From: Eledone cirrhosa
Taxonomy: Eukaryota
DNA: 64,000 nt
Direction: 5' to 3'
Assembly (NCBI GenBank): GCA_964016885.1
Contig: OZ024740.1
Coordinates: 367,412,001 to 367,476,000 of the forward strand
The position numbers and the translations under genes are program-made. The stretch's first letter is position 1, and each line of letters starts with the position of its first letter. Below the pieces are notes generated by a model that worked only from the letters and a program-made list of their open reading frames with translations, did no database searches and had not been told where the DNA came from. Positions 2,905-63,000 of this stretch are shown here, piece by piece.

Positions 2905-4997
2905 TACCCACCCGGGTCATTAGGGGGTTTGAGGGCGAGGTAAGTCCTACGCAATCGGTGTTTACATGCAGTTACCAGTTCGTCTTTGTTGTTCAGTAGC
3001 TGGTCGTTCGTAAACAACATTTGTAATGTTTCCCCCGAGCATAAGTTACACGGACGGCGTCCTCCCGTGTAGGAGTTAGCCCTGGACAGTAAGCTCCAAG
3101 TAAGATTGTATGTTATGTTATTCTCTTGGAGGTCTCAGATGTGGCCCGAAAGTGCAGTAGTATATCGCCAGGCCGGTGTTGGTAGAGCCGGGTCTTAAAG
3201 TAACAAGCCGTTAATCCTATATGAGCTTTGTTGGAGGTGTTCGTCCTCACGTTGCATTGGTAGATCACGTTACGTTCTCGGCATCTGTTGTTGAGGGGGA
3301 ACGTAGATCTATCAGGGCAGTTACACCTCCTGGTCGGCTCTCCACTAATGTCTAGGTTGTTTCTTCCATAGGGCTTGAGTTTTTTGTTGTTTGAGGAGGC
3401 GATGTTTTGTGCGAGGTTGGGTGTGGTGCTGTAGGTGAGTTTGATAGTGTTTTTGTTGATTATGTTGTTGTAACGGTGTTGTGGTGGGAAGTGTTTTTCG
3501 ATAAGCCTAAAGAAGATTTTCCCGATAGGTGTTGCCACCTCGGCATTGTGGGGAGGGTTGAACCACGTCACGTGGCGTGAGCGGCGGCGTTGCCTGCTGG
3601 TTCCGCTAAGGGACGCTGGATAAAAGGATATTTCCTCCCGGAAGACGCTTCGCTTGAGGGCCCGGTTGTAATGAAGCGCATGTTCATCGAATATCTGCTC
3701 ATTAGCGGACAAACGAGATATGCGGAGGGAGATGTTTTTAAGCAGGTTATTGATGATGTTTCTAGGATGGTTAGAGCGGCGGTGGATGTAGTGCAGGTTG
3801 TCGTTTGGGTTCCTGTATGGGTAGTACAGATCATTTTCGAGGTTGAGGGAAACGTCCAGGAAATTTACACGGGTTAGGGACTTTTGTAGGGTGATTTTAA
3901 ATCCCCAGTCCCGGAAGAAGTTGATTAGTTGTTCACGGACGCGGTCTGTACTACGGGGGTTGTACCCTTTGAGGGTAAGGAGCCCATCGTCTCGGTACAA
4001 TCCACCGCCGAATTCAGAAAGCATTTCAGTGAGTTTATATAGTAGGATTAATCGTATAAGATCGGTCACCTCGGCCGATTCGGTCGCGCCCATACTGACG
4101 TCGAAGGGGGAGTCGGGAGCTCTATTTATCCACTTGGAGTTGGTTGTAGAAAAGTAGGACTGTCTTCCTGGAGTGGAGAATGATATTTCTGTCCTAGTCG
4201 ATGATGGGCGTGAGTGTTTTGGCAAAGTCCAAAGCGACCGTAAGGAGCGGTGAGGTAATAGATGCATAGTAACTCTCTATGTCAAACTGAATGAATTTGG
4301 TGTCCTGTTTGTCGTCAATATTCCTGAACCATGAGATTACTTCCTGGGTGCTGACTCATAGGCAAAGTCTCGCCTTTTCCTTAACTTTAGGTATAACGTA
4401 TGCTAGGATCTTTTTACTCATTCTCCCTATGTCCGACTTAGTCGGGTTTATAAGCCTGATGGATGGTTTGCGGTCGAAGTCGGAGTCAGTTCGGTCGGCG
4501 ACCCCGAGGCTGGAGGTAATTTGTTGTCCATCTAGATTTATGTTCTCGATAATTGAATGGTTAGCTTTTTTGTAGGTGGAGTTCAGGTTGCTCCTGATCA
4601 GTGTGTGGTATCTGTCAGGGTTGACGCAATAGAGGTTTCTAGTTTTGTCCGAATGCACCAGGATGTCGTTGGTGCTTTCATACTCCGTTATTTTGCTATG
4701 AAGTTGTTGTAGGAATCTGTTGTGTCTGGGTTTGAATTGTATAACCTTGACCAGGTGGAAAAAATCGTTTTCGAAAGATGAGAGCATAGGGTTCGGTGGG
4801 GGAGATTTGTAGGTATTGAATCCGAATCTCTCCTTGGTGTCGAAGTCCTGGTTGTCGCGGTATCTATCGTAGAAAAATGTTCTCCATCTTAGTCTTTTCG
4901 CCAACAGGTCGATTTTTTGAGTGAGCATCCGAAGGTAAATCTTTCTTGGTGGAACTGGGATGTTCTTGGTGGAGATGTCGATAGTGTGTTTTCGCAT
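2905..4997 (-). pseudogene. Disrupted PLE RT-GIY-YIG polyprotein
   Basis: Starts MRKHTIDISTKNIP (ATG 4997). RT motifs FIQFDIE, FDVSMGATESAEVTDL, GLYRDDGL and VNFLDV; linker TWFNPP and CNC...PLNNRC; endonuclease HIGLT..FKTRLYQH; C-terminal CNLC...LNNKDELVTACKHR. A TGA replaces a conserved Trp at 4356-4358, with frameshifts near 4267 and 3150. Confidence 0.9.
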
Positions 4998-5181
4998 GGT
5001 GGGTGTAATGAAACTTGAGCTGGGTGGAAAAGTCAGGATATGGCGTGGTAGAGTCGGAAAGTGCTCTACTACGGAGGTAGGAGCTAGATAACGAAGGCGT
5101 TGTGGTAAAGAACCAGATGGACCAAATCGCACCAGAGTAGTCAATACTTAGGGTAAGACAGTGGATAATAGGAAAATGTAT

Positions 5182-5680: not shown

Positions 5681-5950
5681 AAAGTCTAAAGTCTAAAGTC
5701 TGTCTTAAGCCAGAAGGCTCATTTGGCCGGTGCTTAAACCAGTTTCATGGCGTGAAGCAACTGAGAGTACAAGACTTTCTCCTGGACAGGGCGGCAGTCC
5801 ATCGCAGGGTTAAACACCAGCTATTGCTGGTACTCATTTCCAGATGAGTATACTGGAGCAACGTAAAATGAAGTGTTTTGCTCAAGAACACAACACGCAA
5901 CCAAGGAATCGAACCAACATCTTGATAATGCAACACCCTTAACATTAGCC
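5681..5950 (-). mobile_element. tRNA-derived SINE with CORE-like central domain
   Basis: Minus strand B-box-like GGTTCGATTCC, then gtgttcttgagcaaaacactt (CORE-like). Short tandem 3' tail, (aaagtct)n on the plus strand at ~5681-5700. Confidence 0.65.
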
Positions 5951-5959
5951 AGCCCCGGA

Positions 5960-8900
5960 TTTATATATATAAATATAAAAATATTTTAGACAGAATAATG
6001 CCACAAATTAAGAATTTATCTTATTTAAAATTATGGAAAGGAACTAGTGAAGTTATCGATTGGTTTAAGGAAATTAAATATAACTATAATAATAAGTTTA
6101 TTCAGTTGGATATTGCTAACTATTACGCATCTATCACTCCTAATCTACTGAATAGAGCACTAATTTACGTATTTAAACATACAGACCTAACTAGCAATGA
6201 AATACACATTATATTATCGGCATGGAAAACATTAATAGAATTTCATAACCAACTCTGGACTAGGGCAGATAGAAATAATAACTTCGATATAACTATGGGA
6301 TCATCCGATTCCGCTCAGGTAACGGATCATGTGGGCATCTTTATAAATAATTCTCTACATAGGAAAATACCTGAGATAATCGGAGGTTTATATCGTGACG
6401 ACATGCTTTTACTTATAGAAAATAATAACTGTGAACTAAATAGAAAAAGAAAACAAATTATACAATTTTTTAATTACCTTAATCTAAAAGTAGAAATAGA
6501 GAATAACCATAAAATAGTTAACTTTCTAGATGTAACACTAAACCTTAACACATGTCTTCAGTATCCATTTCGCAAATTAAATGAGAACTTAAACTACGTC
6601 AATTTTAACTCTGATCACCCCAGATCCGTTAAAAATACTATAGTGAACTCTGTACAGGAAGGAATTTCGAGAATTTCAGCTAATAAGAATATATTTGGTG
6701 AAAAAGCACATTATTACAACGAAGCGTTAGGTAGAGCTGGGTGTAGAAATAAAATTAAATACATTGATAATAATAATATAACAACTAACCATAATCGTAA
6801 CAATTTTAACTATTTTAATAATTTTAACAACTATAATAGAAAACCTTACAATAATTCCGAAAACAAAAAAAGAAATAGAACTAGGAACATATTATGGTTC
6901 GCTCCTGCTTTCTACTTAAATATTAAAACCCCTATAGCTAAACTATTTTTTAAAGCTCTTGACAAATGCTTCCCTAGAACACATAGATATTATTCAATCT
7001 TCAATAGACATACTATAAATTTAACTTATTCTTCCACCAACACCTTAGCGCAAAATATTAATAGAATTAATAATAGAAATTTAAAACCTAACCAAAATAC
7101 CACTAATAACCCAAGCAATATCCAATTTGATAAATGTAACTGTAGAAATAAATCTAACTGTCCGTTAAATGACAACTGCTTAGCTAAAAATATAGTATAT
7201 AATTGTAATGTAAAAACTAATTTAAATTCATTTAATTATGTGGGATCCACTTCCACAGAGTTTAAATCCCGCTTCAATAATCATAAAAATTATTTTACAT
7301 ATCCAAACAAAAAATCTTCAACTTCTCTATCTAGCTTATTATGGGACCTCAAACTAAAGAACGTTGAATATTCGTTGATTTGGAATGTTATTTCAAAGCT
7401 ACTCCTTTTAACTCCTCTTCAGAAAATTGTGATCTTTGTATAGAGGTAAATATTCTTTATATTAAAGACCAAAAATTCACTGAACTTAAGGAACAATTTA
7501 TTCAGTTGCTGTAGACATAGATTGAACTCAACGTTTAAATACAAATTTAAAATGTAATATATAATTAATTAATTAATACTATTAATATATTAATATATTG
7601 AACCTATCGATAAATCATTAGATTCCTTCATTTGTTTTTACTGCTTATACACTCAAGTAAAAAAAACTTTTCTTCCTAAATATAAATAAATATAATAAAC
7701 TCTTCTAGAGAAATATACTGAAAGGGGAAAATATTTTTTGATAGTTTCTCCTATCTTCGAAAGTTTATCTTTTGATAGTTTCTTTTTCTTTTTTCCTTTT
7801 CTTTCTCGTATGGATATAAAATTTAGTTAAATATACGTAGAACATTTTTATACTAAATTTATTAAACATATTATTATTTTGAAATTATAACTTGAAATAT
7901 TCTATAATATTTTAAAAGTTATATTGTTTTAAAGTTATATTGCTTATAATTATATTTCCAAATCGTAATATAATTATTTTGTATTTTGTGTACTTCAATT
8001 ATACTTCTCTCTCTCTATGTGTATATATATATATGTGTGTGTAATGATATACATGTACATATGTTTTATGCGGGTATGTCTATCTGTATGTATATATATA
8101 TGTGATGCATATCTACCTATTTGTGTGGGTACATATATGTATGTATATGTGGGAATTGTGTATGTATATATATGTGTATATGCATACAATTCGATTGCAC
8201 TTATTTCTAAACATATAATAACAGTCATAACTACATAACAGGTAATCTTATAGAACTTATATAAAAAAAATTTGTTTAATAACATAAAGTGTGTATAACA
8301 TACAATTTCCTTTAATATCTTAACAATTGTAACATTTATATAACTAAATAACGTAATTTTCCTTCACGCTGCTTTGATATTACATTGATTAGATTCCTAT
8401 ATCTTAAATTAAAAAATCCTTTATATTCTGTATGTATATATTATATACGTAGTTAGATACGTATATTATATTTTTATATACGTGTGTATATATATTTATA
8501 TGTATGTATTTTTGCGTGTGTATGTGTATTATATAATATATAGATTTTTAATAATATAGTCTTAATAATAATATAGATTTCTTAATATATAGATCTCAAT
8601 TTTTAATGTATTTATCTCAATATTTTAACTGATTAACTAAACATTTAATCATATTTAAACAATGGTTAAATTTCTCATATTATACATGTATCTTCCATTC
8701 ATGATTATTAACATTTCTAATTTTATTTATTCATTTCATCTCAAATGTTAAGATATGACGTAGATATGACGTAGAGTTTTCGCTCTCTCTCCTTTCTCTT
8801 TCTCTCCTCTCTCTCTCTTTTTTCTCTCTGTTGTTCTGCTCTCTCTCTCTCTTTCTCTTTCTCCGTAACCCAACGGCTTATTTAAAAATATCCAATACTA

Positions 8901-9200
8901 ACTTACCTAATAGTATAATTAAAGATATAACTCCACTACCCGGGAGCTTCCAATAGTAATGGTTGCATTCTTTAAGGGTATGTCAATATTTATTTATAAA
9001 ACTGCTCTATATTATATTTTATCTGATGAAAGCACACCATAATTTAACTTGGTGTCCTTAAAATATGTATAATGAAATAAATATGGTTTTATAAATATAG
9101 TTTCCATTTGTTAATATCGTATTTTTACTCCATTTATTTGTTGAGTGCTTTATATCAGTTATACAAATATTTGCTTGTTGTATCCCAACAATTTAAATAG
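5960..9200 (+). mobile_element. PLE copy including long 3' UTR and decayed HHR near 9020-9070
   Basis: Begins right after a (TA) run. CTGATGA at 9023-9029, stem aagcacacca/tggtgtcctt, then AAAA instead of GAAA. Ends at (CA)(TA)n ~9210. Confidence 0.75.
5998..7550 (+). pseudogene. 5'-truncated PLE RT-GIY-YIG ORF (Naiad-like), very AT-rich
   Basis: 481-aa ORF with FIQLDI, FDITMGSSDSAQV, GLYRDDML, NFLDV, WFAP, CNCRNKSNCPLNDNC and YVGSTSTEFKSRFNNH. Frameshift near 7400, after which CDLC...CCRHR continues in another frame. Confidence 0.92.
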
Positions 9201-9207
9201 AACTTTT

Positions 9208-9260
<53 letters not shown>

Positions 9261-9267
<7 letters not shown>

Positions 9268-9896
9268 AAGGTTTAGTAAATAATGAAAAAGTTTCAAAAT
9301 AAATTTAAAAAAATTGACTTTACCTACTATAGTTACCTTTACCGATCGGTTTCGAATCCCAAAAATAAAACGGAGACCATACGGCCTTCGTTGCAAAGAG
9401 AGATTCTCGTCAGAAGGTTCTTTTCATTCAAAGAATATAAAATTCCTGAATTTAAATCACAAACTAGCGCTATCAAAGACTGTTCCTGGGATGAGAGTGG
9501 ATGATGTAGAACAGGTTTATCAAGGGCCGTAGTAAAGATAGAGGCAAAAGGAGGTAGGTCAAACTAGCCACCGCTGTTGTCAGCAGCAGTCGGAATGACC
9601 CGGTTTGTTCTCAACGTTTGTGGAGGTAGTAGTAATATGAAATACGTCCCTTCACGCACAAGGCGCCAAGGTACGCATGTATTGTCCAACCAAGTGCCAG
9701 TGTGGTTCAATGGCGGGTTAATAAATTAACGAGCCAGAACAAATATAAACAAGGTTTAGTAAATAATGAAAAAGTTTCAAAATAAATTTTAAAAAATTGT
9801 CTTTACCTACTAGAGTTACCTTTACCGATCGGTTTCGAATCCCAAAAATAAAACGGAGACCATACGGCCTTCGTTGCAAAGAGAGATTCTCGTCAA
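9261..9896 (-). mobile_element. Non-coding HHR mini-element; ~150-bp direct repeats with 483-nt period
   Basis: 9261-9412 recurs at 9744-9895. Both copies carry the HHR GAAA/stem III/GUA part. No ORF in the spacer; (TA)n at the 3' end. Confidence 0.75.
9335..9418 (-). ncRNA. Canonical minimal type-I hammerhead ribozyme
   Basis: Minus strand: acctt CTGACGA gaatctc...gggattc GAAA ccgatcgg TA aaggt. 5-bp stem I, 7-bp stem II base, palindromic stem III (ACCGATCGGT), GUA cleavage triplet. Confidence 0.88.
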
Positions 9897-56304: not shown

Positions 56305-59267
56305 AATAAATTTTAAGACTAAAATCCAAAGAGGGCTCGATAAGGATGAATATATATCAGATATATAAGAACCGTAGAGCAAATATTTATTAAAATAACA
56401 GATTAAAGTTTAAGCAAATAATTGGTGCTTTCACCCTTAACGGGATCTTCTGAAACTAATAAAAGTCAATCTGTGAACGCAGAAGTAAATATTTCAAAAA
56501 ACGTTGCAACCGAAGGAAGACAGGAAGACGATACTTTGGTTGGTGGAAACGTTCCCTGGCAAAGAACGAAAAAAAACGAAAACAACGAAGATAATACGTC
56601 ATTATTTGTTGCGATGAAAACAATTACACGCAAAGACAAAACCACGTTTATGGTATAAATGAAGTCGTAGACTAATATTCTATTAGGTGGTTGATGGACA
56701 CGTTCTCTGTCAATGAACGGAAAAAACGAAGATAATAGACATCAACTTCGAAATCCTTAACCACTGTGAGTGTTTGAGCGAAATTGATAGCTCTCAGAAG
56801 AAGTGGTAAAGTGATGGAGGAGTAGTAATTAATGATGCCGAATTGGATAAAACAGCAATGTTCCTTGTTGCATATGCCGTTGAACCAATCAATCACCGCG
56901 AAAGAATTGTTCCACAGTGGAAGAGGGGCCAAACTTCTAATTTCAGCTATAATTCTATCTAAAATCCTTTTACTAAGTCTACCTAAATCGGACTGCGTAG
57001 GGTTAATAAGCCGAAGAGAAGGGTTGTTCGGGAAATTGGAATTGTGATCCTTCAGGGTAAAGTAGTGAGAAACGGCGTCCAGAGGTTCAGTCCCGTGCAG
57101 GATATTGAGATCAGAGGTGATTTTAAACCCAGCATCGTTGATTTCATTAATGACGCTCCGATTAGTTTTACGGCAATCCTTAGTTACATCATTATTTAGT
57201 AGTTGATGGTAAGTACTGCGCTCCACTAGATATAGGTTGCCAGTTTTGTCGGAGTGGACGTGCAGGGCATTAGAATCCTTAATAGAAAGAATTCTATTCT
57301 TTAGGTCCTGCTGGAAGGAATTGCTCCTATTCCGAAATTTGATACTCCGTATGAGTCCCAAGACATCATTTTCGAAGGGCAGCAATGCTGGGATACTCGG
57401 AGGGTTATTATAGGTTTTAAACCCAAATTTATCCTGTTTGTTGTCTGCTTTCCGCTGATTATCGAAATAAAAGGCATGCCAACGCAACCATTTAATGAAC
57501 CCGTCTGTTTTCTGTATCAGGAGTTTTAGGTATGTTTACCTGCTTGGTACGGGTATGTTCCTTGTAGAAATATTCAGATGTTGTTTCTGCATGATGAATA
57601 TAAGTCAATATAGTGTTCAACCGAGGGAGCCAATAAGTAATTATAATAAATTTGAAGACTAAATCCAAAGAGGGCTCGATAAGGATAAATATATATCAGA
57701 TATATAAGAACTGTAGATCAAATATTTATTAAAATAACAGATTAAAGTTTAAGCCAAGAATCGCTGCTTTCACCCTTAACGGGATCTTCTGAAACTTAAG
57801 AGGTCAATCTGTGAACGCAGAAGTAAATACTTCAAAAAACCTTGCAACCGAAGGAAGACAGGAAGAGATACTTTGGTTCGTGGAAACGTTCCCTGGCAAA
57901 GAAGGGAGAAAAACGAAGATAATAAGTCATTATTTGGTGCAGTGAAAACAATTACACGCAAAGACAAAACCACGTTTATGTTATAAATGAAGTCGTAGAC
58001 TAATAATCTATTAGGTTGTTCATGGAGACGTTCTCTGGCAATGAACGGAAAGAACGAAGCTAATACCTCATTATGTGGACCGTTGAGAACAATTACACGC
58101 AAAGAGAAAACCACGTAAATGGTATAACTGAAGTCGTAGACTAAAATTCTATTTAGTAAACCGAATAATTCTCGGCTTCAGAGTTAAGAATAAAGTAAAT
58201 TAAATACAGAGGTAATTGAAATTAAATATATACATACACGCATCCAAATACGTACATACACAATGATACGCGAAAATAACTCGCCATGGGTATGCAAATA
58301 AAAGCACGTACACAAAAAAACACGCACCCACATATAGAACCCACGCAACGACTGTACCCGCACACATACGAACGTATACACCAAATACACATAACATATA
58401 TATGAAAGAAAATATATATATACATGTTTGTGTGTGCGTGTATACATAATGAAAATAAACGTATATAAATACACACCCGTAAATACGTATATAACGCGCG
58501 CACACACATACCTACATGTAAATACACATAAGTTCACAGAGCACGTCAACCAAAACACAAAGTACACATACACACACACCCACATACATACGAACACCAT
58601 ACTCACACAGACGCAAAACTCACGTATACACATAACCAAATGCACATGTACCAGTATATATAATATATACGCCAAAACATATACAAGCAAATATACGTAG
58701 GAGAAAGTATACGTATCTTCACAAGACATACAGGTAAAATATACTAACCTATACAAATAAGTAATGTTATAACAAAACATATATTTAGCTACCACATCAG
58801 GACGTGAAATATCCGCGTATAGTTCGTACTATCCGTTAGGGTATAATGTGGGACTGTAATACAGGAAAGTTTTGTGCAATTTATGTTAACAAGCCGAAAT
58901 TGCTTCAGATTTTTTGTTTAAGACGTGGTCTTTGGCGTAGAGTATTTCCAGGGCCTCAGCGCCGCAGAGGTAACATGGTCTTTTATTTCCGTTATACGAT
59001 CTAGCCTAAGCTAGGATCTCCCAGTGTGACTTATATTGGGTGTGGTTGTCTTTTAGACTCCAGATATAAGCTGAAAGTGACGTCATATTCCTTTTTGAAG
59101 GTTTAAGAAAAGAATGGGTATGCATGTAAAGACGCTGCTTGAATCTATTGCCGGTTAACCCTATGTAGGCCCTACGGGACGTATGTGTTTCAACCTTACA
59201 TTTATAGACAATGTTACTAGAGAGACATTTCCCGGATAGGGGGCAGTCAACCCGATTCCTACATTTG

Positions 59268-60034: not shown

Positions 60035-63000
60035 ATAAAGAAAAAAATATGAAATCGGAAATGCAACTTGAGTCTTATTTAAAAAAAATATATATATTTA
60101 TTTGGTTCCTTTACCGGTTTCGCAGTTCTTCTGTTTTTCAAAACTAGAGTTGAGATGGAGGGTCTGTGGCTTTTCTCACATCTGGTTGGTCTTTGAATTT
60201 TACTTGGTTTATATGAAAAAAAGTGGCTCGATACGCCAGGTTTTTAGAGAAGTAATTTTATTGGTTGGTCAATAAGTATAATAAGTTTCGTGCTTGTTCG
60301 CGTTACAAAGTTCTTCAAACAAGGGGGTGGGGCTCAGGTTTTCTTTTCATATATGATTGGTTGATGCAGTCAAATGAATAAGCACATCAGCTTTCGCGCC
60401 AGTTTGTTTGAATTTCTTTTTACTTAAAAAAGGGCCTCACGAAGGCTTTTTTTTATAAATGTAATTTGATTGCTTATAAATGAAATTATGGTTGTCACGT
60501 GAACAAGTTCATTAAATTTCGCGCCCGTATTTGGGAATTTATTTTGTACCCTTTTAGAGAATTTTATGACAAACAAAAGATAATGGCCAAGATAAATGGG
60601 ATGAGAGAATTGTCTGGTTCAGTGAATATGGCTGGTTCGCTTGGGGTGTCAGAATTCAGACTTTCTATTGAAATAAAGAAAATAGATAAACGTATGTTTA
60701 TTCGTGTGCTTGTATGTGTGTGTGTGTGTGCGTGTGCATAGGAAGATGATTCTATTAGTAGAAATGGGGGAGGGAGTTGTGTGTGTGTATGGGTGTTATG
60801 TATGTGTGGGAGTATGGTAAGATGGAGAGAATATATATATTTTGTGTGTGTGTATGTGTGTAGGAAAGTCATTCTATTAGTAGAAATGGGGGATGGAGTT
60901 GTGTGTGTGTGGGAGGGGGTGCTATGTGTGTGTGTGTGCATGGCTGTTATGTGTGTGTGTGGGAGTATGGTTAGCATGTTAAGACGAAGAGAATATATAT
61001 TTTGTGTGTGTGTGTGTGTGTGTGTAGGAAAATGATTCCGTTAGTAGAAATATTTTTGAATGAACATATTTTCCTTATTTATTCGTATTTGTTCTGTTGT
61101 ATTGTCAGCGAAAACGTATGTTAAGGTTTATTTAGTACGGGTTTTTATTTTCTAAAGTAGAAGGTGTTATGTGTGTGTGTATGTGTCTGTTTGGATGGTT
61201 AGCATGTTATTGTGTTGACATAATGTATATTAAACCATATTTAATGCTGGTCTATATTTTTGAATACACATATTTTCCTTATTTATTCGTATCTGTTCTG
61301 TTGTATTGTCAGCGCAAAGATAAAATGGGAAGAGTTGCAATTTGGGTGTCTTTTTACTTGCGCATATGTCTATTGTGCACTTAGTGGTATCTGTCTCGTG
61401 GTTGGAACTCGTAATTGTTGGTGATGAACTGTCATTCTGTTTCTGAATGTGAGTTTAGTTTTCCTATATAATCTTCATTGCATCCTTTACATTTAATGGC
61501 ATAAAGTAATTTTTTTTTATGAGAAAGTGAAGTGATTTTTTATAGCAAAATGTTGTCCTGATTGAAATGTATATTGTGGCCTTCAATGAGGTGAGTGCAG
61601 TTTCCACAATTAGAGCGACCACATTTTTTGACAGCTGGTTGTGGGTTTGTGGTAGGTTATTTGGCATTGGTGAGTAATGTTTTCAGTGATTTCGGTTGCC
61701 TTTTGCTTTTGATTATTTCGTGTGTTTCAAGGGAATTTTTTTTATTCTTGGGTCTTGTTTCAATAGTGGGATGTTCTTGTGAATAGTGTTGTAAGCTTCA
61801 CCATTTCTTGGGTTGTGTGTTGAGATAAATGATCGAATATTGGATGTACCTTGAATTTGTTCCTGTTTTTCGTAATTCACCAATGCCTATTGCTTTAGAC
61901 CTTTCTATTCCATTATTTATTAGTAATGGTGGGTACTGTCTTTCGAGTAAAATTTCCTTTAATTCCTGAAGTCTTTTATTTCGCGTTTCATAATTGGAGA
62001 TAATTGTGCAAATTCTTCTTGCTATGTTAAAAGGAATGTTCGTCTTCGTGTGCTTTGGATGGTTGGAGGTGAATAGCAGGTATTGTTTGGAATCTGTTGG
62101 TTTGTAGTGTATGTCAGTTTCAATATTTGTGTCTTTTTTTAAGATTAAGATGTCCAGAAATGGGAGTTGATCTTGGCTGTATTCCATTGTGAATTGGATG
62201 CGGTTATTGATGCCGTTAATTAAATTTTTGAAATCATTCAGTTGGTCGAGTGTGTGGGACCAACGAATGAGACAATCATCCAAGTAGCGTTTCCAATTCT
62301 CTGATAAATATTTGTGGAAGTTCAATCCGTATTTTGATTTGGACTGTTCATATATCTGGACTTCTAAGTATGCCATGACTAAGTTGGCATAAGTTGGAGC
62401 GGCTTTTGTACCCATCGCAGTCCCCGATATTTGCTTGTAAGTACTGCCATTGAAATCAAAACGTTGTTCTGTAAGATAAATTTTAATAAATAAACCTTAA
62501 CATACGTTTGCGCTGACAATACAACAGAACAAATACAAATAAATATGGAAAATATGTTCATTAAAAAATATTTCTACTAACGGAATCATTTTCCTACACA
62601 CACACACACAGGCACACACACACACACAACATATATATTCTCTTCATCTTAACATGCTAACCATACTCCCACACACACATAACACCCATACACACACATA
62701 TACCCCCCTCCCCCACACACACATAACACCCATACACACACATATAACACCCCCCACACACACAACTCCCTCCCCCATTCCTACTAATAGAATCACTTTC
62801 CTACACACATACACACACAAACTATATATATTCTCTCCATCTTAACATACTCCCACACACACACATAACACCCACACACACACACAAACTCCCTCCTCCA
62901 TTTCTGCTAATAGTATCATCTTCCTACACACACACAAACACACACACACACACACACACACACAAGCACACAAATAAACATACATATCTCTACTTTCTTT

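What the first reader, a model, noticed from the sequence alone, without database searches (positions are those of the whole stretch)
9261..9896. Second, unrelated HHR mini-element with cleavage sites 483 nt apart
Seen: on the minus strand a textbook HHR (9335-9418) is preceded 483 nt upstream by a near-identical copy truncated at the CUGA core, and the spacer is non-coding. Inference: the parental array would release a 483-nt monomer between two GUA sites, which is the retrozyme layout. The palindromic stem III (ACCGATCGGT) fits dimeric HHR cleavage by tandem copies.
Basis: partly seen in the sequence, partly recalled or inferred. Interest (0 to 1): 0.78.

Follow-up and report, generated by a model that had tools for sequence, protein, structure and literature searches.

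The report
Ribozyme repeat hijacking Penelope-like retrotransposons
This is one shortened copy of a 483-base non-coding repeat with a hammerhead-ribozyme fold, inserted at hundreds of TA-microsatellite sites in an animal genome, and it carries twice the same small predicted RNA hairpin as the genome's Penelope-like retrotransposons, which is likely how it borrows their copying enzyme.

Summary
Observation confirmed; the class is known. The insert (9260-9895, minus strand) is a 1.3-unit, 5'-truncated copy of a young non-LTR retrozyme family: 483-nt non-coding monomer, type I hammerhead with covarying stems, arrays up to about 10 units, inserted into (TA)n. The break at the CUGA core is one of many scattered 5' truncations, not a design. 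New detail on mechanism: copies end at two fixed points (monomer 80 and about 188), and inverted insertions use one of each (28 of 28 pairs on two contigs). A bulged hairpin (UC...UU/UA-GA) starts about 10 nt past each end, in this family, in a 50%-identical sister family and in Neptune-type Penelope-like elements (PLEs) that share no detectable DNA similarity with it (7 of 7 held-out ends; 5 of 7 with the strict motif). Arrays are born homogeneous, both arms included. Likely mechanism: a PLE protein dimer primes both target strands on one continuous, probably circular, RNA. Not shown: expression, cleavage, circles, and which PLE is the helper. The scan noted a similar TA-targeting PLE-type tandem repeat on other DNA (e1-7810660).

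The parts
9260..9895 (-). Whole insertion: 1.3 monomer units, 5'-truncated at monomer position 411, 3' end at monomer position 75-80
9340..9822 (-). 483-nt monomer between the two GUA sites; non-coding, 40% GC, folding z-score -2.8
9335..9418 (-). Complete type I hammerhead: stem I 9418-9414/9339-9335, CUGACGA 9413-9407, stem II 9406-9400/9360-9354, GAAA 9353-9350, palindromic stem III 9350-9341, predicted cleavage after 9340
9818..9895 (-). 5'-truncated hammerhead copy lacking C3 and the 5' strand of stem I; GUA at 9823
9758..9812 (-). Long predicted hairpin just after the cleavage site (repeated at 9275-9329); a similar hairpin is predicted in sister family B
9260..9265 (-). Fixed 3' end 1 (monomer 75-80), running into (TA)n; 246 exact matches of this junction genome-wide
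9705..9740 (-). Bulged hairpin 1 (GUUC/GAAC, UU bulge), 10 nt past end 1; predicted pairing probability 0.87 in the circular monomer
9635..9742 (-). 108-nt 'tail' between the two fixed ends; end 2 (monomer 184-193) lies at about 9630-9639 and is read through in this copy
   Evidence: contigs with loose (TA)n ends at 9635
9610..9625 (-). Bulged hairpin 2 (CUC/GAG, UU bulge), 8-15 nt past end 2; predicted pairing probability 0.90
9216..9264 (.). (TA)n target site, shared tail-to-tail with a neighbouring PLE
9015..9210 (+). 3' terminal repeat of a neighbouring PLE (RT/GIY-YIG-type frame at 5929-7443) with a minimal hammerhead whose GAAA is mutated; unrelated in sequence but carrying the first bulged hairpin

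Best explanation
The insert is a 5'-truncated copy of a multi-copy non-coding hammerhead repeat (non-LTR retrozyme) that is likely copied into (TA)n by the protein of a Neptune-type Penelope-like element. SHOWN: dispersed head-to-tail arrays, (TA)n targets, two fixed 3' ends used one per side in inverted insertions, scattered 5' breaks, homogeneous arrays, a shared bulged hairpin past each end. INFERRED: (1) array transcripts self-cleave at GUA, probably as dimers through the palindromic stem III, and a host ligase closes the 483-nt monomer; (2) a PLE protein, probably a dimer, binds the two bulged hairpins on one RNA; (3) its endonuclease nicks both strands of a (TA)n run and each RT starts about 10 nt upstream of one hairpin (monomer 80 and 188); (4) each RT runs across the ribozyme junction for 0.1-10 turns; (5) the two cDNA 5' ends are joined head-to-head by short microhomology, or, as here, one arm alone is joined to the flank.
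For: Arrays and copy number: 120 matches at mostly 97-100% identity from 40 of 1648 candidates scored; 1386 exact hammerhead patterns incl. sister families, control 0. Ends: 28 of 28 adjacent end pairs on contigs C1+C2 are divergent 80/188 pairs, P=1.3e-9 against 0.48 expected; 30 of 31 and 17 of 18 junctions in fetched loci (L009 row dropped as an artefact); sister family B 7 of 7 and PLE-type families Y1 6/7, Y2 2/2, Y3 1/2, N1 5/5 (one mixed B/C row dropped). Hairpin: defined on A, B, N1 and X, then found 9-11 nt past 7 of 7 ends mapped in four PLE families not used to define it; shuffled rate 0.001-0.002 per nt. One template: variants seen in 3 or more loci are fixed within an array in 207 of 217 cases and agree between arms in 96 of 103; private variants are single-unit in 115 of 124 (79 loci). 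Continuous template: 60 of 82 arms run more than 10 nt past a cleavage site. Junctions: 29 of 49 show 1-8 nt overlap. Intact near-identical 741-801 aa PLE frames exist. In vitro precedent: two RT start sites bounding the tail, both strands nicked and extended, predicted dimer (PMC11167929).
Against: No RNA evidence of expression, cleavage or circles could be obtained. No helper PLE with DNA similarity to the monomer was found in loci L049-L078 and L103-L182 or by two motif searches. The motif was relaxed (longer loop, UG bulge) after seeing Y2 and Y4; the strict form fits 5 of 7, and Y2-Y4 are related (61-68% aa). At family A end 2 the commonest end is 15 nt, not 10, from the hairpin. Y3 hairpins are weakly predicted in isolation (0.51, 0.20). 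Homogeneity cannot separate a circle from a long uncleaved transcript of a homogeneous array. The active ribozyme fold is a minority conformer in predicted circles (stem I 0.10 or less in 7 of 8). Only 1 of 9 Xenopus retrozyme dimers cleaved in vitro (bioRxiv 2026.07.22.740005).
Confidence: 0.6

Rival explanations
1. Same PLE-driven dual priming, but the template is an uncleaved linear multimer transcribed from a master array; the hammerhead is slow or acts later and circles are a side product.
For: Arms cross the cleavage site freely; active fold predicted to be minor; ribozyme mutants did not affect insertion by the anole PLE in vitro (PMC11167929); a few arrays show partial variants (10 of 217).
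Against: Core and stems are conserved with compensatory changes across families 50-55% identical; 5' breaks are enriched near the cleavage site (17 vs 6.9 expected in -13..+17, window chosen after seeing the data), suggesting cleaved or ligated ends in templates; unit-specific variants are rarely shared between loci.
Confidence: 0.27
2. A minisatellite born from a PLE terminal repeat: monomers insert singly and arrays grow in place by unequal crossover (one scenario in bioRxiv 2026.07.22.740005).
For: Adjacent units occasionally share a variant (L032 334C>T in 2 of 7 units); in-place duplication also homogenises arrays.
Against: Arm lengths are non-integer with fixed 3' ends and scattered 5' breaks; both inverted arms are multimeric and share locus-specific variants (L035, L040, L193, L210); the youngest arrays are the most uniform (L018, L031).
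Confidence: 0.08
3. Just the 3' fragment (terminal repeat) of an ordinary autonomous PLE in tandem-plus-inverted form, not a separate element.
For: Ends, target and inversions are those of PLEs; an earlier scan finding reached this verdict for another element (e1-7908855).
Against: Arms of 4.3-4.9 kb consist only of monomers; 5' breaks do not share a fixed exit point into a longer element; no coding similarity to PLE frames.
Confidence: 0.05

Closest known systems
Animal non-LTR retrozymes (Cervera and de la Pena 2020, PMC7229834, passages and Discussion read; Li, Clavereau and Pollet 2026, bioRxiv 10.64898/2026.07.22.740005, parts 1-3 of 5 read)
   Same: Non-coding tandem units with one type I hammerhead each, GC under 45%, co-occurring with PLEs, proposed circular intermediate and PLE helper.
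   Different: 483 nt is above the 170-400 nt RNAs of the 2020 paper but inside the 51-972 bp range of the 2026 preprint. In the parts read, neither describes fixed paired 3' ends, inverted arms, (TA)n targeting or a cis signal shared with PLEs; the preprint links retrozymes to PLEs by sequence similarity, which is absent here. Its supplements could not be seen.
EN+ Penelope-like elements, Neptune-type (Craig et al. 2021, PMC8557442, passages read)
   Same: 5' truncation, partial tandems, inverted 5' copy, a tail often at one end only, microsatellite targeting, hammerhead in the terminal repeat.
   Different: No protein is encoded; the tail is 108 nt (80-145 nt in this genome's PLEs) against 30-40 bp described; 'often one end' is here a near-strict one-of-each rule.
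Poseidon PLE of Anolis (Frangieh et al. 2024, PMC11167929, main text parts 1-2 of 4 read; supplement term search found nothing)
   Same: Two internal RT start sites bounding the tail, downstream of the hammerhead; AT-rich targets; both strands nicked; predicted dimer.
   Different: There the starts are adjacent, in an AC-rich stem-loop, with no difference between strands seen in vitro; here they are 108 nt apart, each followed by a repeated bulged hairpin, and paired one per side in the genome.
Non-autonomous Chlamys elements such as MRC1 (PMC8557442, passage read)
   Same: Non-coding PLE dependants with multicopy head-to-tail insertions.
   Different: Those generally resemble autonomous families in sequence at the 3' end; here only structure is shared with the PLEs examined.

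Membership tests
Non-LTR retrozyme | Type I hammerhead in each unit | tested here: met
   (descriptor and covariation; no Rfam hit)
Non-LTR retrozyme | Head-to-tail tandem units, at least two consecutive complete ribozymes | tested here: met
   Family: arrays to about 10 units. This locus alone has one complete ribozyme and would not count as 'active' by the preprint's rule.
Non-LTR retrozyme | Non-coding, a few hundred nt, low GC | tested here: met
   483 nt, 40% GC, longest Met frame 44 aa
Non-LTR retrozyme | Dispersed mobile copies | tested here: met
   246 exact end-1 junctions on many contigs
Non-LTR retrozyme | Self-cleavage of the transcript | not testable with these tools
   needs in vitro transcription
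Non-LTR retrozyme | Expressed as linear and circular monomer RNA | not testable with these tools
   no RNA run available; contigs cannot show circles
PLE-mobilised element | Two fixed 3' ends (tail), 5' truncation, inverted 5' copy | tested here: met
PLE-mobilised element | Sequence similarity to the terminal repeat of an autonomous partner | tested here: inconclusive
   none among about five PLE families examined out of a very large set (88,498 protein candidates)
Autonomous PLE | RT plus GIY-YIG reading frame | tested here: not met
Plant LTR retrozyme | Type III hammerhead in LTRs with 4-bp target duplication | tested here: not met
   type I topology, tandem units, (TA)n target

The most novel reading that the evidence does not exclude
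A repeated bulged hairpin (YUC-stem-loop-stem-UW-GAR) is the RNA signal that positions each subunit of a dimeric Neptune-type PLE reverse transcriptase. Two copies per RNA make the enzyme prime both strands of a cut (TA)n at once, which explains PLE tails, one-ended tails and inverted repeats in one step. Retrozyme circles are minimal mimics that keep only the ribozyme and these two hairpins.
Probability: 0.5. Interest if true: 0.78.

Novelty: new member of a known kind. Interest (0 to 1): 0.56.

Why it matters
How animal retrozymes are mobilised, and how PLEs form tandem/inverted copies with a one-sided tail, are both stated as open in the papers read. This family gives young copies, exact start sites and a candidate cis signal shared with intact PLEs of the same genome. 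A 483-nt circle plus a purified PLE protein would test helper use, rolling-circle copying and two-strand priming directly in an assay format that already exists. A short RNA signal that directs two-strand priming at (TA)n may also interest retroelement-based gene insertion.

Tried and rejected
Rfam: no match at gathering score in the window and only microsatellite-driven miRNA matches locally. Expression: no RNA holder listed; four runs of unrecorded kind were laid, three behave like DNA (a unique piece of the unit at depth 690-834 against flank 2.6-15) and the fourth is uninformative. Helper search: blastn/tblastx of monomers against PLE loci gave only an E=0.55 match outside a PLE end, E=0.008 matches in L181 not followed, and a family B insertion in a flank; shortened-stem II search found only deleted A and B copies; two hairpin-1 pattern searches gave A/B variants, an antisense match in a repeat that appears coding, and a small unplaced family. 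Pfam did not recognise the PLE frames beyond a weak RVT_1 hit; the Neptune-type label rests on RT and C-terminal GIY-YIG-like motifs with an upstream Cys cluster read by eye against the description in PMC8557442 and on recall. Idea that a downstream ACCUU switches the ribozyme off: predictions inconsistent across families, dropped. Endless reading frame in the circle (483 is divisible by 3): all frames have stops and sister monomers are 477-524 nt. One search's raw count (361) is inflated by overlapping matches; only distinct sites on C1+C2 were used. Literature searches for the hairpin or paired priming found nothing relevant; the library lacks most subscription papers, including older Penelope work. 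The host group was not determined; 'cephalopod' was an untested guess.

Full report
Observation. The minus strand holds a complete type I hammerhead at 9418-9335 and a 98%-identical partial copy 483 nt upstream that starts at U4 of the core. The GUA sites are at 9823 and 9340. The insert spans 9260-9895 and runs into (TA)n at 9216-9264. A neighbouring PLE ends tail-to-tail in the same run. Rfam does not detect the ribozyme. Alignment of 15 hammerheads from three related families shows an invariant core and two-sided changes in 9 of 15 pairs. The stem III palindrome changes from ACCGAUCGGU to ACUGUACAGU in family C and stays self-complementary, including the four central bases that can pair only between two copies. 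That supports, but does not show, dimeric cleavage.

Family. In the own genome (3.0 Gb) the query gave 1648 candidates; the 40 scored gave 120 matches, mostly 97-100% identical, many in arrays of period 483. An exact hammerhead pattern matches 1386 times, including sister families, with 0 for the reversed control. The longest arms seen are 4270 nt (L031) and about 4900 nt (L098) of pure monomer. Family B (477-488 nt) aligns over the whole monomer at 50-55% identity; family C (524 nt) is closer to B. The monomer has no coding capacity. This meets the sequence definition of an animal non-LTR retrozyme (PMC7229834, passages and Discussion read; bioRxiv 10.64898/2026.07.22.740005, parts 1-3 of 5 read).

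Ends. Copies end at monomer position 75-80 or 184-193 and continue into (TA)n. On contigs C1 and C2 exact patterns list 66 end-1 and 45 distinct end-2 junctions. All 28 pairs closer than 10 kb are divergent and contain one of each (P=1.3e-9 against 0.48). In 50 loci picked by the end-1 pattern, 30 of 31 inversion junctions are 80/188 (exception L217); in 30 further loci 17 of 18 (exception L004; L009 row dropped). Family B (7 of 7) and PLE-type families (Y1 6/7, Y2 2/2, Y3 1/2, N1 5/5) follow the same rule. A tail often present at one end only is known for PLEs at 30-40 bp (PMC8557442), and it was traced to two RT start sites in vitro (PMC11167929). Here it is 108 nt and nearly strict.

5' breaks. 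In 82 arms from the 50 loci the 5' ends fall all round the monomer; 60 run more than 10 nt past a cleavage site, so the template is continuous there. The window copy's break at 411 is one of these. Breaks are enriched near the cleavage site (17 vs 6.9 expected, P=8e-4 uncorrected, window chosen after inspection). Head-to-head junctions show 1-8 nt overlap in 29 of 49, blunt joins in 8 and small insertions in 12.

One template per insertion. Across 79 loci (sites 10, 23 and 28-36 left out), variants found in three or more loci are fixed within an array in 207 of 217 cases and agree between arms in 96 of 103. Private variants are confined to one unit in 115 of 124, fixed in 7, partial in 2. Arrays therefore start uniform and then mutate. 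This fits rolling-circle copying of one circle. It also fits a long transcript of a uniform source array, which these data cannot exclude.

Shared hairpin. Just 3' of each end lies a predicted stem closed by UC/GA with a 2-nt UU or UA bulge on its 3' side. I defined it on families A, B, the neighbouring PLE family N1 and element X. I then mapped ends in four further PLE families with intact frames (39-68% aa identity among Y1-Y4 and N1). The motif starts 9-11 nt past 7 of 7 testable ends, against 0.001-0.002 motif starts per nt in shuffles. The strict form fits 5 of 7; Y2 end 1 needed a longer loop and Y4 end 1 a UG bulge. Inner stems differ in sequence between families yet pair. In the circular A monomer both hairpins are predicted at 0.87 and 0.90; Y3's are weak in isolation. 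At A end 2 the main end is 15 nt from the motif, minor ends 8-11 nt. No other similarity between monomers and the PLE loci examined was found, so the helper family is unknown.

Mechanism. Most likely (0.6): self-cleavage and ligation give a 483-nt circle; a Neptune-type PLE protein dimer binds the two hairpins, nicks both strands of (TA)n, and each RT starts about 10 nt upstream of one hairpin and runs round the circle; the cDNAs are joined by microhomology. When only one arm is fixed, a simple truncated copy like this one results. The main rival (0.27) differs only in using an uncleaved linear multimer. In-place satellite growth (0.08) and a plain PLE fragment (0.05) fit poorly. This locus has one intact core and two private substitutions in its post-cleavage hairpin; it could release a monomer only if the intact core also cut the upstream GUA in a swapped fold, which is speculation.

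Limits and novelty. No RNA run was available, so expression, cleavage and circles are untested. The element class and its link to PLEs are in print. Five searches of the held library found no description of the paired use of ends or of the hairpin, but subscription papers and the preprint's supplements were not visible. The scan's earlier notes gave no look-alike sequence and two related reports on other genomes, unchecked. Verdict: new member of a known kind, with a testable mechanistic lead; interest 0.56.

Noticed in passing
window 5929-7443 (+) and 9015-9210 (+): PLE (family N1) with a 504-aa frame and a 3' terminal repeat whose minimal hammerhead has GAAA mutated; it shares the (TA)n target with the finding. 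Two 3' ends about 48 and 138 nt past the cleavage site across copies.
   Followed up: partly
window 3113-5147 (-), 38978-39439 (-), 56672-57535 (-), 61798-62496 (-): Further broken PLE-type RT/GIY-YIG frames; close relatives with intact 784-aa frames occur at many loci in near-identical copies.
   Followed up: partly
L163 and L164: Four-unit array of a 3.5-kb autonomous PLE in which units 1 and 3, and 2 and 4, encode proteins scored 100% identical (ABAB); a dimeric template, a tandem duplication or an assembly effect.
   Followed up: no
L006:2167-2368, L011:1081-1285 and 2722-2927, L029:724-912, L088:2925-3125, L218:1776-1988: About 200-bp inverted mini insertions made only of the two Y1 PLE ends, MITE-like in look and of near-constant length.
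   Followed up: no
L087:2245-2895, L094:4798-5531: Sister family C, 524-nt monomer with a duplicated post-cleavage segment and a different stem III palindrome.
   Followed up: partly
L053, L007, L082, L160, L179, L083, L111: Several more hammerhead families with palindromic stem III and two 3' ends roughly 85-100 nt apart where both were seen.
   Followed up: partly
L163, L166, L172 upstream of the reading frames: Young PLE families Y1-Y3 carry hammerhead-like folds with non-canonical cores and long stem III, missed by the strict descriptor (read by eye).
   Followed up: no
L249, L252, L253, L257, L261: A small repeat family with the GUUC/GAAC bulged hairpin near (TA)n runs; no reading frame match in the fetched flanks.
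   Followed up: partly
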